A stretch of 64,000 nt of DNA from the human T2T-CHM13v2.0 reference genome, Homo sapiens, in NCBI RefSeq assembly GCF_009914755.1, contig NC_060930.1. The stretch is one strand, 5' to 3'. Below, in pieces: positions 163-18,999 of this stretch. Position numbers and translations under genes: made by a program. The notes under the pieces were generated by a model. That model was not told where the DNA came from, did not search any database, and was given only the letters and a program-made list of their open reading frames with translations. Position 1 is the first letter of the stretch, and the number at the start of each line of letters is the position of its first letter.

Positions 163-3100
163 AAACTTCCGATTTTCTAATCGCTGAGGACACATAGCTC
201 AGACATATGAGTATAGATAATTTTTCTTCTATATTTCAAGTTCAATATTATTAAAAGACTATAAAATCTACAGTCCTTATTGTAACAACACAAGAGAAGC
301 TACAGACACTGGATGACTGTGGTTTCAAATCATAAATGTTTCCTCTTGATTCTAGACTCCTATGGAAGTCTAGATTCAAGTTACTGTTGCATCCACTGTT
401 GAATCTCCAATGCCTGTTGCAATGTGTGGCACAGTAAACATGCAATAAATACATATTGGCTGAGTAAAGAAACTAATATCAGAGTAACTAGAAGTTATTG
501 ACTCCTGCCTCAAGTAAGCAGGCTGACTGGAGGAACTTAGTTTGCTGAAGACACCTGTTTGAGAGGAAGTGGGAGTTAAATGACCTAACTTACTAGTGTA
601 AAAAAAAAAAAAAAAAAAAAAAAGGACATAAATATATGTAGTCTGCTTAACGATAGCAGTAAAGGGCCTCACTGTAGTGCCCCGGTTCCTCCGAAACATA
701 AATGCGAAGGACAAGAGGATCTAGCATGTGTCTGAAACGCCATCACTGAATCCTCTTGATATTCTTTAAGACGCAAATCCACAGAGCTTCACCAGAACAG
801 CCAAAGATTATCATTTTGAAGAAAGGGGATATAGTGAAACAAACATGTATGTACCAAAGACAGCAAAAGGGCCTACGTCCGCTGACATGTTCAAACGTTT
901 TAAGGAAAGCTATTATTTCAAGCACATGACAAAAGGATAGAGAAGGGAGTAGAATGAATTACAGAATAACTAGTGTTTACGCCTGAGAGGTCCCTGGGCT
1001 GTTCTGTACCTCCTGGAAACTGTTTATGTGCACAAGTCCTGTGATCATGGGGCTATGATTAGTGGATGCTGACAGTGTGACAGCAGAGGAAGGCATGAAT
1101 CACCACTGTTCCATATAGGAGAAAGGTGAACAAGACCGACTCTGCCCCAAAGACAGTCTTCTTTTTCCACATTCTAAGTTCTGGTGACTTGGTGCTATAG
1201 GACAGGGTAGGAAAAAGAGAGAGGACTGATGAGGAATAAATTTCACGATTTTAGGAAATTCCACTTCTGAAAACTCATCTTTTGTGACATTATAATTTCT
1301 TAATTTATACCTAACAGCTAATAATTTTCCATTTTCCACAGACTCATTATCTTTTAAAATTATTGAAATCTTCAAATGCCTGGCACTGCATTTCTGAAAT
1401 GGTCCTATCTGTAGGAAGATGTTTATTTCACTTTGATCCAAGCTTTCTCTGCATCAAGAACCCAAGACGGGAATGCTACCAGTCAAGGGAAGGTAAATAA
1501 AAATTGATGACTTCCTCAGTTTTCTAGGAATTATCCACCAATGAATTTGACTGGATGGTTGAGTTGTAGTAAATATGTCACAGCATTAAGGATATTTTGT
1601 TGTCATCTGGAAATGGTAGAAAAAGTAGCCAGAAAAAGCTCTTTCCTGAATGCAGGTGGAGATGTCCATTCTTGGCAAAGTCTATACAATAATGCTTGAT
1701 TGAGATGCTTGACCTGTCTTTTGCTACAAAAGCAGAATATGAATCTCATTTGAAGCACTGAACTAGAGTAAAATGTGACAATATTCAAAACTGCCTGAAT
1801 CAGTCATAAAACACTAGTCGGCTTCAAGTATTGGCATTCTTTAAGAAAGACACTGAGGTTCTGAATACTTTGAATCTGTTATGTCTGTCCCTTTGAGTGG
1901 AGTACAGCCAGTCCGTATCTTACTGTCCTTTCAAGAAAAGTTCTTGAACAAAGTGGATGCACTTTCTGTCATGGAAGTCAGTGGTGGATTTGGAAACGTA
2001 GCCTTCTTTTATCTTCCCGTGGGTCTTTTCTCGAATCTGAAAAGCTGACACTTATTGGATTATAGGGTGGGGATCATAGGGTGGGGAAAACCCATCCTAT
2101 GGATGATAGGCTGGGGAAAACCAGTTAACTACAGGTAATCAAGAAGAAAATGCCTTCTGAATGACATGAGGTGGGACATTTGAAGAGAGTTGATGTCATC
2201 TTCTGATGCCTTTCCAGTGATTTGCTTAGAAGAAATCTGTCCATGATCACTTAAATAGAGGCAGAAAAAAAACCCTGGGGTTAGACGAGGCCTTTATCCA
2301 CAGCTGAAACTGATGAGGCCTCCTGGCAAGACCCCAAAGCCAAAGACTTTGTTTCCTGTCTTCTCAAAGTCCTGACCTCCAGTATTTAGGGAACCAATAA
2401 CATTTTTTCATTTCTGGAGTTATGTTTCTCATGCAACTCATGGCAGCTGCTTGCCAGCTCAGCATTTAGACTAATTTGTTACAGAAAATGGGGTAAATGT
2501 GTGTTCACCAAGGTCCAAAAATTAATATGAGGTCTAAACATATTTATATGCAACCTAACAAGGTATATGATACTTTTATCAGCATGTGTATTGTAAAATT
2601 AGAACTTTGGAACTCAGAACATTTCATTTCTAGATGTGTCTCAGTTTCTCACATTAGTTGTTTTGGTTTATTTTGTTTTGGTTTTAGAAAATGGGATGAC
2701 AAAATATTCTGATAGTGATTATCTTTTTTAAAAAGATAAATTGTTTTTAAAGACAGTTTTAAAAAATTCTCTGAGAAGAAATATAATTTGTATATTAACT
2801 GCAAATAAGTATTATTTTAAAATATTTTCTTCCATATATATAGTAGCCATGGGATTTATATATAGCCTTAGCAATCTTGCATACTTATTTTGAGGACTGA
2901 AAACTTCTGCCCAAATAATGGGGGGGGGGAAAAAAACCAGAAGAACATATATATTGTGTCCATTTCCTCAGATACCAAAACTTTGCAAGCAGTCGGCACA
3001 TATATGTCATATTACTATCCACCTCCACTTGAAAAATATTGTAATATTCAAGTACAAAGAGGAAAAACTAATATTTGATTGTCCTATCTGTAGCTAAAAA

Positions 3101-4813
3101 CCATCCATTGGAAGCCACATATATTCACTTCATTTAAAAAGATTTTCCAAGAACTCTCTCAAAAGAACCAGAAAGCTTCCCAAGCCATAGCCAGCACATT
3201 GTTCCCTTGTCCTCTTTGGGGTTTTATAACAACAGTTGATGAGAGAAAAGGTAATGAGCTGTGGCAACATTTTTTCAAGTTTAAAGCCTCCTCAAATGTT
3301 GGAGTTTGGATCCAGGTTAAGTATTTTGCTGCATAATTATTTATGCATCTATTTTTGGCCAAATATAACTCCCTGTTTCTAGGAAGGAAGAAGGTTGGAA
3401 CAGTGTAGTGAAAAGAATCATGAGGCTTCTTTCATACCAAAGAGTGCTCACAAAACCACATTTTGATGAGTTATGTGTAAATGAATCAGAAACTTATGGT
3501 TTGCATTTCCCTAAAAAACACAGAGATTTTTAAAATAAATGAATAAAAAAGATGTCCCCCATACAATACATTTGGCATATTGCCCATTAACACTTCAAAG
3601 AAGATAATTCAACACTTGCAGTAGACAAAAAAGAGATTTGCCCAAGTCTGGTCTGAGAGTATGGGAATGCATCTTAGCTGTGGCCAGCGCTGTAGATCCA
3701 CCTTCAAGGATTCATCTTCTGTGACCAAGACCAAGTTAAGCACAAAATCACACACACACAGTTTTTCAACTTAAAATGGTAAAACAGTTCCTTAACTGCT
3801 TAACATTTTCTTTAAAGAAAAAAAACTGATGGACACCATCCACAGTGGACAAAATAAAACATAACTCATTATTCTCTATCTTTAAAAACTCATTTATTAA
3901 TTCTTTCAACAAATATTTATTGGACACCTGCTATGTACCAGGCACTCTTCTGGGCTCAAGGGGTTCTAATGGTAAATATGACAGATGAGGCTCTGTATTT
4001 ATGGAGTTTGTCATGACAGAAACCCTTCTCTGCCATGTCAATGTTATAAAGCAATTCTTGTAGACAATTCCAAGTTATTGTCAAAAACTTGGATTTAGAC
4101 ATCTGGATGACTAACTTTGTGAACCTCCTGAACATCTGAGGAAGAGGGAAGAATAAAAGGACCCAGAGAGCCTCCAAGAAGATGTTATGACAGGCAGGCC
4201 TCAAATTTACTTGGGTTAGCTTTCTAGCAAAGATACTGTGTAAATTGATCTGCTTTTCAGAAAGCAGCCGATATCATAAAATAAAGTGATGTTTCTTTTC
4301 AAGGGTGTCATCTTAATCAGCTATAAGTGATGCAACTGTACCTTACAAGGCAAAAACCTTTAACCAAATATAAATCAATTCAACAGGGCAAGCGCAGAAG
4401 TAGCATTTTCTGTATTTGCAGCTCAAGAGAGGTGCTATGAGGAACTGCGGAAACTCATAGGGCCTAAAGAGCAGCTTCAGATGTTGCCCAGAACTTAGAT
4501 GCCCTGACCTATACATGTATCATGGAACCAGCAGGACGTTCAGGTGGATCTCCAACTTCCCAAAATCACCCACAGCTTTCATCTTAAATCACACACCACG
4601 ACCCAACAACCTGCTGTTTCAAGCTCTGACTCCCTGACCCTCATCTCCCTCCTTCTACAGCTCTTCCTGTGGCTTCAAAACCCCCTACCCAGACAGGTAC
4701 CCCCACTCTCTCACCCCAGCATTCTTCATCTTAACTTCCTAGGTGTTTCCCTGAAGGTTACATCCCCAGTGCCTACCCCCATTCCTGGGTCATGGTCAGT
4801 AAAACATTTTTGT

Positions 4814-16154: not shown

Positions 16155-16166
16155 CCAAACCCTATT

Positions 16167-16170
<4 letters not shown>
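16155..16170. repeat. Left copy of the 16-bp target-site duplication (ccaaaccctatttctt) of the SVA-plus-transduction insertion
   Basis: An identical 16-mer lies at 18934-18949. This copy abuts the T-run 16171-16197 (minus-strand polyA). Confidence 0.95.
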
Positions 16171-16197
<27 letters not shown>

Positions 16198-16523
16198 GAT
16201 GAGCAGTCAGAACACACACAGCATTTATTGGAAGTTTTCCATCTTATATGGGCACAGTTTGTGGCTCCCCAAAACAATTAGAATAGTAATATCAAAGATC
16301 ACTGATCACAGATCACCATAACAGATATAATAATAATGAGAAACTGAAATGTCGCAAAAATTACCAAAATGTGACCCAGAGACAGGAAGTGAGCGCATGC
16401 TGTTGGACAAATGGCACTGATAGATTTGCTTGACACAGGGTTGCCAGAAACCTTCCATTTGTTAAAAAATGCAATATTTGCGAAGTACAATAAAGTGAAA
16501 CACAGTAAAATGAGGTGTGCTGG
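16198..16523 (-). mobile_element. Tigger1 5'-end fragment, carried in the transduction and cut off at the polyA
   Basis: Matches the remembered Tigger1 terminus (…cctcattttactgtgtttcactttattg…ggtgatctgtgatcagtgatctttg…tgtgtgtgttctgactgctc). It ends abruptly at the T-run and does not continue beyond the TSD. Confidence 0.85.
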
Positions 16524-16609
16524 GCATCCTGCCATTTATGCACATGCCTCTTTAGGTAGAAAATAATCCTGTAACAGTTGAGGCTGTGGTTGCCTTTCTG
16601 AGACTCTTG

Positions 16610-16920
16610 TCTACAGAAATGGTCAACTGGTGGCCAGCTGGCCAAAGGGCTAATCTAGCCCACAGACATGTTTAGTTGGGGCTACATAGAGCTTTTTACA
16701 AATTTGAGTCAATATTTAGAAAATAAAAGTCTGGATTTTGGGATTCCCTTACAAAAACTGGAAAATTTGGCCACACTGGGTCATATTCCCACATAGTCGT
16801 GGTGGTTGGGGTTCAGTAGCAGTAGCTGCTGCCCCTTAAGACAGGTCCCCATGGTCCCCACTCAGTTGCTTCCTTATTTATCTTACAAGCCTGGCAAGGA
16901 ATTTGAGTTGAACTGATCTA
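16610..16920. mobile_element. hAT-Charlie MITE relic (MER102-like) inside the transduced segment
   Basis: Resembles the MER102/MER58 group (tctagcccacagacatgttt…ctggaaaatttggccacactggg…atttgagtt). Confidence 0.55.
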
Positions 16921-17110
16921 GAAGATTGGTGCTAAGAACCAGCTCAGTGGCTTAGCTGTCCTGGGGTCTGCAGGAGAAGGCTTCTTTGTTAGGCCCAGGC
17001 AGGAAGTCTGGGCATGGATTGAGGTTTTTTTTTTTTTTTTTTTTGACCTTTTAAATATTTATTTATTTTTTATTTTATTTTATTTTATTTTATTTATTTA
17101 TTTATTTTTA

Positions 17111-18933
17111 ATTGATCATTCTTGGGTGTTTCTCGCAGAGGGGGAGTTGGCAGGGTCATAGGACAATAGTGGAGGGAAGGTCAGCAGATAAACAAGTGAA
17201 CAAAGGTCTCTGGTTTTCCTAGGCAGAGGACCCTGCGGCCTTCCGCAGGGTTTGTGTCCCTGGGTACTTGAGATTAGGGAGTGGTGATGATTCTTAACGA
17301 GCATGCTGCCTTCAAGCATCTGTTTAACAAAGCACATCTTGCACCGCCCTTAATCCATTTACCCTGAGTGGACACAGCACATGTTTCAGAGAGCACAGGG
17401 TTGGGGGTAAGGTCACCGATCAACAGGATCCCAAGGCAGAAGAATTTTTCTTGGTACAGAACAGAATGAAAAGTCTCCCATGTCTACTTCTTTCTACACA
17501 GACGCGGCAACCATCCGATTTCCCAATCTTTTCCCCACCTTTCCCCCCTTTCTATTCCACAAAACCGCCATTGTCATCCCTGCCCGTTCTCAATGAGCTG
17601 TTGGGTACACCTCCCAGACGGGGTGGTGGCCGGGCAGAGGGGCTCCTCACTTCCCAGTAGGGGCGGCTGGGCAGAGGCGCCCCTCACCTCCCGGACGGGG
17701 CGGCTGGCCGGGCGGGGGGCTAACCCCCCCCCCATCTCCCTCCCCGACGGGGCGGCTGGCCGGGCAGAGGGGCTCCTCACTTCCCAGTAGGGACGGCCGG
17801 GCAGAGGCGCCCCTCACCTCCCGGATGGGGCGGCTGGCCGGGCGGGGGGCTGACCCCCCCCACCTCCCTCCCGGACGGGGCGGCTGGCCGGGCGGGGGGC
17901 TGACACCCCCACCTCCCTCCCCGACGGGGCGGCTGGCTGGGCAGAGGGGCTCCTCACTTCCCAGTAGGGGCGGCCGGGCAGAGGCGCCCCTCACCTCCCG
18001 GACGGGGCGGCTGGCCGGGCGGGGGGCTGACCCCCCCACCTCCCTCCCAGACGGGGTGGCTGCCGGGCGGAGATGCTCCTCACTTCCCAGACGGGGTGGC
18101 TGCAGGGCGTAGAGGCTCCTCACTTCTCAGATGGGGCGGCCGGGCAGAGATGCTCCTCACCTCCCAGACGGGGTCCCGGCCGGGCGCTCTCACATCCCAG
18201 ACGGGGCGGCGGGGCAGAGGCGCTCCCCACATCTCAGGCGATGGGCGGCGGGGCAGAGACGCTCCTCACTTCCTAGATGGGAAGGTGGCCGGGAAGAGGC
18301 GCTCCTCACTTCCTAGATGGGATGGCGGCCGGGAAGAGGCGCTCCTCACTTCCTAGACGGGATGGCGGCCGGGAAGAGGCGCTCCTCACTTTCCAGACTG
18401 GGCAGCCAGGCAGAGGGGCTCCTCACGTCCCAGACGATGGGCGGCCAGGCAGAGACGCTCCTCACTTCCCAGACGGGGTGGCGGCCGGGCAGAGGCTGCA
18501 ATCTCGGCACTTTGGGAGGCCAAGGCAGGCGGCTGGGAGGTGGAGGTTGTAGCGAGCCGAGATCACGCCACTGCACTCCAGCCTGGGCACCATTGAGCAC
18601 TGAGTGAACCAGACTCCGTCTGCAATCCCGGCACCTCGGGAGGCCGAGGCTGGCGGATCACTCGCGGTTAGGAGCTGGAGACCAGCCCGGCCAACACAGC
18701 GAAACCCCGTCTCCACCAAAAAAGTAAGAAAACCAGTCAGGCGTGGTGGCGCGCTACAGGCACTCGGCAGGCTGAGGCAGGAGAATCAGGCAGGGAGGTT
18801 GCAGTGAGCCGAGATGGCAGCAGTACAGTCCAGCTTCGGCTCGGCATCAGAGGGAGACCATGGAAAGAGAGGGAGAGGGAGACCGTGGGCCGTGGGGAGA
18901 GGGGGAGGGGGAGGGGGAGAGGGAGAGGGAGAG
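17111..18933 (-). mobile_element. Full-length SVA retrotransposon (young SVA_D/E/F-like): hexamer, Alu-like, VNTR and SINE-R domains
   Basis: Read on the minus strand: (CCCTCT)n-type hexamers ~18866-18933, antisense Alu-like region ~18490-18860, GC-rich VNTR ~17610-18490 (units like gggcagaggcgctcctcacttcccagacgggg), and HERV-K-derived SINE-R ~17111-17610 ending cccaagaatgatcaat. CpGs are largely intact, so the element is young. Confidence 0.98.
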
Positions 18934-18949
18934 CCAAACCCTATTTCTT
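18934..18949. repeat. Right copy of the 16-bp target-site duplication, next to the SVA hexamer 5' end
   Basis: ccaaaccctatttctt is followed by ga. The empty site reads TTTCTT/GA, a variant of the L1 endonuclease site TTTT/AA. Confidence 0.95.
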
Positions 18950-18999
18950 GAGGGAAGCAAACCTATTATCTTTAGCCTAAAATCCAAACAGTTGGCTGA

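What the first reader, a model, noticed from the sequence alone, without database searches (positions are those of the whole stretch)
16155..18949. Full-length SVA carrying an ~830-bp 3' transduction inside a perfect 16-bp TSD
Seen: the 16-mer ccaaaccctatttctt lies next to the SVA 5' hexamers (18934-18949). It recurs not at the SVA's own tail but about 940 bp further on (16155-16170), next to a separate polyA. The enclosed insertion (16171-18933, 2763 bp) therefore includes 827 bp of non-SVA DNA (16198-17024) with Tigger1 and MER102-like relics. Established: SVAs are mobilised in trans by L1 ORF2p via TPRT, and read-through of their weak polyA signal copies 3' flanking DNA. Inference: 16198-17024 is a copy of another genomic locus and tags the source SVA. 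A repeat annotator would mislabel it as old local sequence. The perfect TSD, pure A tail and intact CpGs suggest a recent, possibly lineage-specific or polymorphic insertion.
Basis: partly seen in the sequence, partly recalled or inferred. Interest (0 to 1): 0.85.

Follow-up and report, generated by a model that had tools for sequence, protein, structure and literature searches.

The report
SVA retrotransposon carrying copied chr9 DNA
A human-specific SVA jumping gene on chromosome 6 carried along 826 bases copied from chromosome 9, which is an ordinary by-product of how these elements spread; the only unusual point is that its parent copy on chromosome 9 is no longer there.

Summary
The 16-mer CCAAACCCTATTTCTT occurs exactly twice in the window, at 16155-16170 and 18934-18949. 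It brackets a full-length minus-strand SVA, then an inner poly(A), 826 nt of non-SVA DNA and a second pure A27 tail. An AATAAA lies 26 nt before that tail.

A search of the assembly finds the predicted progenitor at chr9:36,940,799-36,941,626, 98% identical. There the Tigger1 element continues past the cleavage site. No SVA is present, and the homology starts exactly after TTTAAAA, an L1-endonuclease-type site, so this is an empty source site.

A second full-length SVA on chr20 carries the same transduction and the same 13-nt tail tag inside its own 14-bp TSD.

Damert 2018 lists both SINE-R domains as hs_SVA_DRb, an SVA_D subfamily, with no chimpanzee or gorilla orthologue. Private divergence of about 0.4-0.8% points to insertions a few million years old, not very recent ones.

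This is a textbook SVA 3' transduction. Recency and polymorphism are overstated or untested. The only modest extra is a progenitor missing from the CHM13 assembly and from the hg19 SVA_D list.

The parts
16155..16170 (-). Target-site duplication, 3' copy in SVA sense (CCAAACCCTATTTCTT on the + strand). Its last T's merge with the tail.
16171..16197 (-). Terminal poly(A), a pure A27 (T27 on the + strand), added after cleavage in the transduced DNA.
16198..17023 (-). 3'-transduced segment of 826 nt copied from chr9:36,940,799-36,941,626. About 16198-16520 is the terminal part of a Tigger1 DNA transposon. The rest is single-copy DNA.
16224..16229 (-). AATAAA polyadenylation signal inside the Tigger1 relic, 26 nt upstream of the cleavage/poly(A) site.
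17024..17044 (-). Inner poly(A): A20 plus one C at the junction. This is the tail of the lost chr9 source SVA that transcription read through.
17045..17057 (-). 13-nt tag TATTTAAAAGGTC (SVA sense) between the A/T-rich SVA tail and the inner poly(A). It is neither SVA nor chr9 sequence and is shared only with the chr20 sibling. It may be a remnant of an earlier, very short transduction (inference).
17058..17114 (-). Inherited A/T-rich (TAAA/TAAAA)n tail. It starts CAATTAAAAA, so the canonical AATAAA reads AATTAAA in this sublineage.
17115..17615 (-). SINE-R domain.
   Evidence: Damert 2018 Additional file 2
17616..18496 (-). VNTR, with units of about 37-50 nt and their multiples. Boundaries are approximate.
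18497..18895 (-). Alu-like domain, made of Alu fragments antisense to the SVA. It carries a 9-bp deletion relative to the chr20 sibling.
18896..18933 (-). (CCCTCT)n-type hexamer repeat at the SVA 5' end, which shows the element is full-length.
18934..18949 (-). Target-site duplication, 5' copy in SVA sense.

Best explanation
A full-length SVA_D element (subfamily hs_SVA_DRb) once sat on the + strand of chr9, immediately upstream of position 36,940,799 (CHM13). Transcription ran through its own tail, which reads AATTAAA plus an A/T-rich microsatellite, a 13-nt tag and poly(A). It continued 826 nt into the flank. The RNA was cleaved and polyadenylated 26 nt after an AATAAA that lies inside a Tigger1 relic. 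L1 ORF2p then inserted this chimeric RNA by target-primed reverse transcription at chr6, producing the 2,763-bp insertion 16171-18933 flanked by a 16-bp TSD. A second RNA from the same source, or from this copy, was cleaved 2 nt earlier and inserted on chr20. The chr9 source itself is absent from this assembly. Shown here: the anatomy, the progenitor locus, the sibling and the empty source site. Inferred: the read-through and TPRT steps (established for SVA and L1), the former presence of an SVA on chr9, and the age of a few million years after the human-chimpanzee split.
For: (1) The perfect 16-bp TSD encloses both the SVA and the extra DNA. There are 2 matches in 64 kb, and 0 of 100 shuffles reached 2.
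(2) There are two poly(A) tracts: A20 after the SVA tail and A27 after the extra DNA. AATAAA lies 26 nt before the second.
(3) The 494-nt single-copy part has exactly 3 copies in the 3.1-Gb assembly: self, chr20 (99%) and chr9 (99%). The full 827-nt query matches chr20 at 99% and chr9 at 98%.
(4) On chr9 the sequence continues on both sides. Tigger1 runs on past the cleavage point (...GCTCATC|ACTGATTGG...), and the 5' side has no SVA within 5.8 kb.
(5) The chr9 homology starts right after TTTAAAA. That motif occurs 6 times in the 8,501 nt fetched, and TTAAAA occurs 10 times. This fits an L1-endonuclease target whose TSD would begin AAAACTCAATG.
(6) The chr20 element is a full-length SVA with the same tail, the same 13-nt tag and the same transduction, but with its own TSD TCTTTTTAGCTTTT.
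(7) chr6 ends ...GCTCATC+A(n), retaining the chr9 bases TC. chr20 ends ...GCTCA+A(n). This is cleavage-site heterogeneity and rules out chr20 as the parent of chr6.
(8) At the 3 polarisable sites where chr6 and chr20 agree against chr9, 4 of 5, 5 of 5 and 4 of 5 outgroup Tigger1 copies carry the chr6/chr20 base. The copies therefore preserve the older chr9 state.
(9) Damert 2018 lists both SINE-Rs as hs_SVA_DRb with no ape orthologue. The mapping is checked by collinear offsets.
Against: No SVA is present at the chr9 progenitor site in this assembly. None appears in Damert's hg19 SVA_D list between chr9:36.86 and 36.98 Mb. None appears among the non-reference SVAs of PMC12593883 at 36.89-36.95 Mb. 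The source element is therefore inferred, not seen.

The chr9 branch carries 8 differences against 3 each for chr6 and chr20, which is more than a strict three-way star predicts.

The SINE-R has no state shared exclusively by chr6 and chr20 among 16 aligned copies. The SVA body alone therefore does not mark them as siblings.

The chr6 nick site (ATTTCTT/GAGG on the primed strand) is only a loose match to the TTTT/AA consensus, which I recall from memory.

No ape orthologous locus could be examined here.
Confidence: 0.93

Rival explanations
1. Inherited transduction. The chr6 element was not copied directly from chr9 but from an intermediate SVA, now unsampled, that already carried the 826-nt tag. 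Alternatively, chr6 is itself the parent of chr20 rather than its sibling. The structure is still a 3' transduction, but one generation older.
For: The 8 differences shared by chr6 and chr20 against chr9 exceed the 3 private ones on each copy. Only 3 of these 8 could be polarised, so the other 5 could be changes accumulated in an intermediate. A transcript of the chr6 copy using the same AATAAA could end at GCTCA, as chr20 does.
Against: All 3 polarisable shared differences are derived on chr9, not on the copies. chr6 keeps the chr9 bases TC at the cleavage site. No third transduction-bearing copy exists in the assembly (3 of 3 candidates are self, chr20 and chr9). chr6 has a 9-bp Alu-like deletion, a 2-bp deletion and private substitutions that chr20 lacks, although these could post-date a copying event.
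Confidence: 0.15
2. Template-switch chimera. L1 reverse transcriptase began on a polyadenylated RNA transcribed from the chr9 locus and jumped to the poly(A) end of an SVA RNA. This gives SVA-A(n)-chr9-A(n) without any SVA ever sitting on chr9. The chimera then retrotransposed once more (chr6 to chr20).
For: The chr9 site is empty. The junction lies at an AAAA run, which could provide microhomology for a switch onto a poly(A). AAAA is common: 143 starts in 8,501 nt.
Against: Both copies share the identical junction, tail and 13-nt tag but have independent TSDs and different cleavage points. This requires an additional parent-daughter step. The junction is preceded by TTT, completing an endonuclease-type TTT/AAAA. 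Only 10 of 143 AAAA starts in that region are preceded by TT. SVA transductions are common: 412 of 3,470 polymorphic SVA insertions carry one, and 188 of the partnered ones are at the 3' end (PMC12350158, passages). I know of no comparable frequency for SVA template-switch chimeras (recalled).
Confidence: 0.03
3. Not one insertion. The SVA inserted next to old local DNA and the distal 16-mer is a chance repeat, or the block arrived by segmental duplication.
For: None beyond the a priori possibility.
Against: 0 of 100 shuffles gave a second 16-mer. The 826 nt is 98-99% identical to loci on two other chromosomes and ends in a poly(A) that is absent at chr9. The flanks outside the TSDs of chr6 and chr20 are unrelated.
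Confidence: 0.01

Closest known systems
SVA-mediated 3' transduction. Sources: the catalogue in T2T-CHM13 (Hoyt et al. preprint 10.1101/2021.07.12.451456, passages read: 7,069 SVAs analysed, 55 top-confidence SVA 3' events), and Xing et al. 2006 PNAS (recalled only; not held).
   Same: The element, its own tail, flanking DNA from the source locus and a second poly(A) all lie inside one TSD. A poly(A) signal lies just upstream of the new tail. The progenitor is on another chromosome. Several offspring share one tag.
   Different: The progenitor site carries no SVA in this assembly. Pipelines that require an annotated parent element next to the origin may therefore not rank it in their top bin. 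I could not see those supplementary tables, so whether this event is already listed is unknown.
hs_SVA_DRb subfamily of SVA_D (Damert 2018, PMC6139936: passages, Additional file 1 whole, Additional file 2 part 19)
   Same: The SINE-R domains of this element and of the chr20 sibling are listed there (hg19 chr6:106301000-106301492 and chr20:32123495-32123988). The nearest SINE-R relatives in CHM13 map collinearly onto other listed DRb members. Both are scored human-specific.
   Different: In the parts I read, that paper treats SINE-R phylogeny only and does not mention the 3' transduction or a chr9 source. The diagnostic substitutions were not re-tested here.
L1 3' transduction (Moran 1999; Pickeral 2000; cited in passages)
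   Same: The same read-through plus TPRT mechanism and the same structural hallmarks.
   Different: The passenger-carrying element is the non-autonomous SVA, mobilised in trans.
Lost or 'extinct' SVA source elements inferred from their descendants (Damert 2018, passages: source elements 'lost in all three hominines')
   Same: A progenitor that is visible only through its offspring.
   Different: Here the progenitor's exact genomic address, to the base, is recoverable from the transduced tag.

Membership tests
SVA retrotransposon (canonical, full-length) | 5' (CCCTCT)n hexamer repeat directly after the TSD | tested here: met
   18896-18933
SVA retrotransposon (canonical, full-length) | Alu-like domain antisense to the element | tested here: met
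   18497-18895 matches the two neighbouring Alus in the opposite orientation relative to the SVA: 72% over 236 nt (E 4e-32) and 69% over 246 nt (E 1e-20)
SVA retrotransposon (canonical, full-length) | GC-rich VNTR | tested here: met
   TRF arrays at 17610-18496 with periods of 37-50 nt and their multiples; repeat families D1-D4
SVA retrotransposon (canonical, full-length) | SINE-R domain followed by a poly(A) signal and tail | tested here: met
   17115-17615: 1,706 candidates in the genome. The 39 scored non-self matches are 97-99% identical over the full length. The tail is seen.
L1-mediated 3' transduction | One TSD encloses the element plus the extra 3' DNA | tested here: met
L1-mediated 3' transduction | Two poly(A) tracts, one at the element end and one at the end of the extra DNA | tested here: met
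   17025-17044 and 16171-16197
L1-mediated 3' transduction | Poly(A) signal 10-30 nt upstream of the terminal tail | tested here: met
   AATAAA at 16229-16224, 26 nt before the tail
L1-mediated 3' transduction | Unique progenitor locus where the sequence continues beyond the cleavage site | tested here: met
   chr9:36,940,799-36,941,626. Tigger1 continues 3' of the cleavage site, and the 5' boundary lies at TTT/AAAA.
L1-mediated 3' transduction | Source element still present immediately 5' of the progenitor segment. This corroborates the mechanism but does not define it; catalogues use it for confidence ranking. | tested here: not met
   No SVA at or within 5.8 kb upstream of the chr9 site in CHM13. 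None in Damert's hg19 SVA_D list at chr9:36.86-36.98 Mb.
L1-mediated 3' transduction | Independent offspring sharing the same tag | tested here: met
   chr20:35,261,278-35,264,085 with its own TSD
hs_SVA_DRb (SVA_D subfamily, Damert 2018) | Diagnostic SINE-R substitutions of the subfamily | not tested
   The published consensus was not used in any tool. Membership rests on the published coordinate list and on the nearest CHM13 relatives coinciding with other listed DRb loci.
Human-specific insertion | Empty orthologous site in chimpanzee and gorilla | not testable with these tools

The most novel reading that the evidence does not exclude
The chr9 progenitor is a 'ghost' source element. It would be an SVA_D that produced at least two fixed or high-frequency daughters in the human lineage but never fixed itself. 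It could still segregate as a rare non-reference allele at chr9:36,940,798/9. From memory, unchecked, this lies in or near PAX5. The two daughters would then preserve a snapshot, several million years old, of the ancestral chr9 haplotype. The 13-nt tag would record a still earlier hop, giving a three-generation lineage.
Probability: 0.1. Interest if true: 0.35.

Novelty: new member of a known kind. Interest (0 to 1): 0.2.

Why it matters
Biologically it is a routine SVA 3' transduction. Roughly one polymorphic SVA insertion in ten carries a transduction: 412 of 3,470 in PMC12350158 and 748 3' events among 7,554 insertions in PMC10681720.

It has three modest uses:
- The tag links two human-specific SVA_D copies that the SINE-R alone cannot pair.
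- It pinpoints to the base where a progenitor once sat that is no longer in this assembly.
- It warns that the 826 nt at 16198-17023 is not orthologous local DNA in cross-species alignments or in regulatory annotation of this PRDM1-upstream interval.

Tried and rejected
(a) Grandparent search. The 25-mer spanning the tag and tail (up to 1 mismatch) and a gapped pattern joining the tag to the SINE-R end each hit only chr6 and chr20. The 3' flanks of the 14 nearest SINE-R relatives contain the tag in 0 of 14 cases. The origin of the tag is untraced.

(b) Polymorphism of the source or of the daughters.
- PMC12593883 supplements: no chr9 entry with prefix 3689-3694. The one hit is on chr6.
- PMC12350158 supplement: the file is cut in storage. 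It has no rows for chr6-1069/1070, chr9-369 or chr20-353, and only unrelated population-table rows nearby. This is inconclusive, not evidence of fixation.

(c) Whether this event is already catalogued. Xing 2006, Damert 2009 and the journal version of Hoyt 2022 are not held, and bioRxiv supplements are closed. This remains unknown.

(d) The earlier-findings tool was not open.

(e) The 'MER102-like' label has no library to test it against. Only 3 genomic copies of that part exist.

(f) Phrase searches using a space in place of ':' failed their own positive control. They were replaced by numeric-prefix searches.

(g) Chance repeat and segmental duplication were rejected.

(h) chr20 as parent of chr6 was rejected, because chr6 retains the chr9 bases TC at the cleavage site.
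Full report
**Observation.** The 16-mer CCAAACCCTATTTCTT occurs exactly twice in the 64-kb window, at 16155-16170 and 18934-18949. Both copies are perfect even when up to 2 mismatches are allowed. Chance expectation is 0.11, and 0 of 100 shuffles gave two or more.

Reading the region, and taking the minus strand as the sense strand, gives this order:
- TSD, then a (CCCTCT)n-type hexamer repeat (18933-18896).
- An Alu-like domain (18895-18497). It matches the two neighbouring Alus in the antisense orientation, with E values of 4e-32 and 1e-20.
- A VNTR (about 18496-17616) with TRF periods of 37-50 nt (repeat families).
- The SINE-R (17615-17115).
- An A/T-rich tail beginning CAATTAAAAA (17114-17058).
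- A 13-nt tag TATTTAAAAGGTC (17057-17045).
- An inner A20 (17044-17025).
- 826 nt of non-SVA DNA (17023-16198).
- A pure A27 (16197-16171), then the second TSD copy.

An AATAAA (16229-16224) lies 26 nt upstream of the terminal tail.

**Progenitor and sibling.** The window's own assembly could be searched.
- The 827-nt query gave 40 scored matches out of 3,644 candidates. Three span essentially the whole query: self, chr20:35,261,309-35,262,134 (99%) and chr9:36,940,799-36,941,626 (98%). The other 37 cover only query positions 1 to about 325 at 80-86% identity, which is the Tigger1 part.
- The 494-nt non-Tigger part has exactly three copies, the same three loci.
- On chr9 the sequence is continuous on both sides. 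Tigger1 runs on for more than 1 kb past the point where the chr6 copy is polyadenylated. Upstream there is ordinary DNA and no SVA.
- Homology begins immediately after ...GGTTTACTTTAAAA|CTCAATG. TTTAAAA occurs 6 times and TTAAAA 10 times in the 8,501 nt fetched. The boundary therefore sits on an L1-endonuclease-type TT/AAAA site far more precisely than chance would give. The consensus itself is recalled, not tested.
- This is what an empty allele of a former SVA insertion site looks like.

The chr20 locus is a second full-length SVA with the same tail, the same 13-nt tag and the same transduction. It has its own TSD, TCTTTTTAGCTTTT, and unrelated flanks. The tag next to an SVA end occurs nowhere else in the assembly.

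**Relationships.** In the three-way alignment of the transduced segment:
- 8 sites have chr6 = chr20 ≠ chr9.
- chr6 has 3 private substitutions plus a 2-bp deletion.
- chr20 has 3 private substitutions.

With five other Tigger1 copies as outgroups, the 3 shared differences that lie in the Tigger1 part are all derived on the chr9 allele. The outgroups carry the chr6/chr20 base in 4 of 5, 5 of 5 and 4 of 5 copies. The daughters therefore preserve the older state of chr9.

chr6 ends ...GCTCATC+A(n), keeping the chr9 bases TC. chr20 ends ...GCTCA+A(n). The same poly(A) signal was thus used with slightly different cleavage. chr20 cannot be the parent of chr6. chr6 being the parent of chr20, or an unsampled intermediate, cannot be excluded.

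The excess on the chr9 branch (8 versus 3 and 3) has several possible explanations: a divergent haplotype carrying the never-fixed source, an intermediate copy, or small-number noise.

**Age and lineage.** chr6 and chr20 differ as follows:
- Alu-like: 10 of 398 positions.
- SINE-R: 8 of 501 positions.
- Transduced: 6 of 824 positions.
- Total: 24 of 1,723, of which 16 are non-CpG.

Among 16 aligned SINE-R copies (this one plus its 15 best genomic matches; 45 of 503 columns vary), chr6 and chr20 each have 4 private states. They have no state exclusive to the pair.

Private divergence of about 0.36% in neutral transduced DNA and about 0.8% in the CpG-rich SINE-R implies a few million years. This uses commonly cited hominid rates of about 0.5-1.2e-9 per site per year, which are recalled, so the age is an inference. 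The SVA body still holds 106 CpGs, with an observed/expected ratio of 0.55.

Damert 2018 (PMC6139936) lists hg19 chr6:106301000-106301492 and chr20:32123495-32123988 as hs_SVA_DRb, without chimpanzee or gorilla coordinates (Additional file 2 part 19). Of 56 hs_SVA_DRb elements, 55 are scored human-specific, and the single shared one is on chrX (Additional file 1).

I equate those rows with the CHM13 loci because the offsets are collinear with neighbouring listed elements:
- chr6: +468,008, +728,114 and +856,523 along the chromosome.
- chr20: +3,136,362 and +3,138,734.

Several of the best SINE-R matches in CHM13 also correspond to other listed DRb members. So 'lineage-specific' is supported by the literature. 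'Very recent' is not supported. 'Polymorphic' is untested, although the element is present in both hg19 and CHM13.

**The missing source.**
- No SVA sits at the chr9 site in CHM13.
- None appears in Damert's hg19 SVA_D list between chr9:36.86 and 36.98 Mb.
- No chr9 entry at 36.89-36.95 Mb appears in the supplementary tables of PMC12593883.
- The large long-read supplement of PMC12350158 is truncated in storage and gave no usable rows for these loci.
- The progenitor is therefore either lost or rare.

**Mechanism and rivals.** The best explanation has three steps: read-through transcription from a chr9 SVA, polyadenylation at the Tigger1 AATAAA, and L1-mediated TPRT into chr6. I put this at 0.93.

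A template-switch chimera could in principle give the same layout without a chr9 SVA. It is disfavoured because it needs an extra generation to explain two copies with identical junctions. The TTT before AAAA also fits an endonuclease site better than mere microhomology: only 10 of 143 AAAA starts in that region are preceded by TT. I put this at about 0.03.

Chance repeat and segmental duplication are excluded.

**Comparison with what is known.** SVA 3' transductions are well described:
- The CHM13 repeat paper analysed 7,069 SVAs and reports 55 top-confidence SVA 3' events (preprint passages).
- Population studies find transductions in 412 of 3,470 SVA insertions (PMC12350158), and 748 3' events among 7,554 insertions (PMC10681720).
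- Lost source elements have also been inferred before (Damert 2018).

I could not read Xing 2006, Damert 2009, the journal version of Hoyt 2022 or its tables. Whether this particular chr9-to-chr6/chr20 group is already listed is unknown.

**Verdict.** This is a correct, cleanly verifiable and ordinary example of a known process. Its one modest extra is a progenitor address that can be pinned to the base although the progenitor is gone.

Noticed in passing
window 17045-17057: A 13-nt tag, TATTTAAAAGGTC in SVA sense, sits between the inherited A/T-rich tail and the inner poly(A). It is neither SVA nor chr9 sequence. Next to an SVA end it occurs only here and in the chr20 sibling. It may be a relic of an earlier, very short transduction from the grandparent locus.
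   Followed up: partly
window 17105-17114; loci L018, L020, L022, L031: The SVA's own terminal AATAAA reads AATTAAA (CAATTAAAAA...) here and in the chr20 sibling. The same is true in 4 of the 14 nearest SINE-R relatives examined (chr10:46.39 Mb, chr2:135.5 Mb, chr2:203.9 Mb, chr6:109.1 Mb). These also share a templated (TAAA)n tail. This is a sublineage marker that might favour read-through.
   Followed up: partly
window 17016-17517: The hub's RefSeq table marks an 'enhancer' that coincides with the SVA tail and the 3' part of the SINE-R of this apparently human-specific insertion. It lies about 140 kb upstream of PRDM1, inside lncRNA LOC105377923. The basis for that annotation was not examined.
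   Followed up: no
window 18925-18972: TRF reports a 23-nt period with 2 copies here. The flank just beyond the 5' TSD (GAGGGAAGCAAACCTATTATCTT) resembles the hexamer end plus the TSD (GAGGGAGAGCCAAACCCTATTTCTT). The target site therefore already held an imperfect local direct repeat of the TSD sequence. This is either chance or an old microduplication.
   Followed up: no
window 18700-18760 versus L014 about 3090-3110; VNTR: [quoted passage not shown] Its VNTR also differs by several repeat-unit insertions and deletions (2,795 versus 2,808 nt overall, TSD to TSD).
   Followed up: partly
L003/L015 (chr9:36.94 Mb): From memory, unchecked by any search, the progenitor site lies in or near PAX5 at 9p13. 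The lost SVA would have been on the + strand.
   Followed up: no
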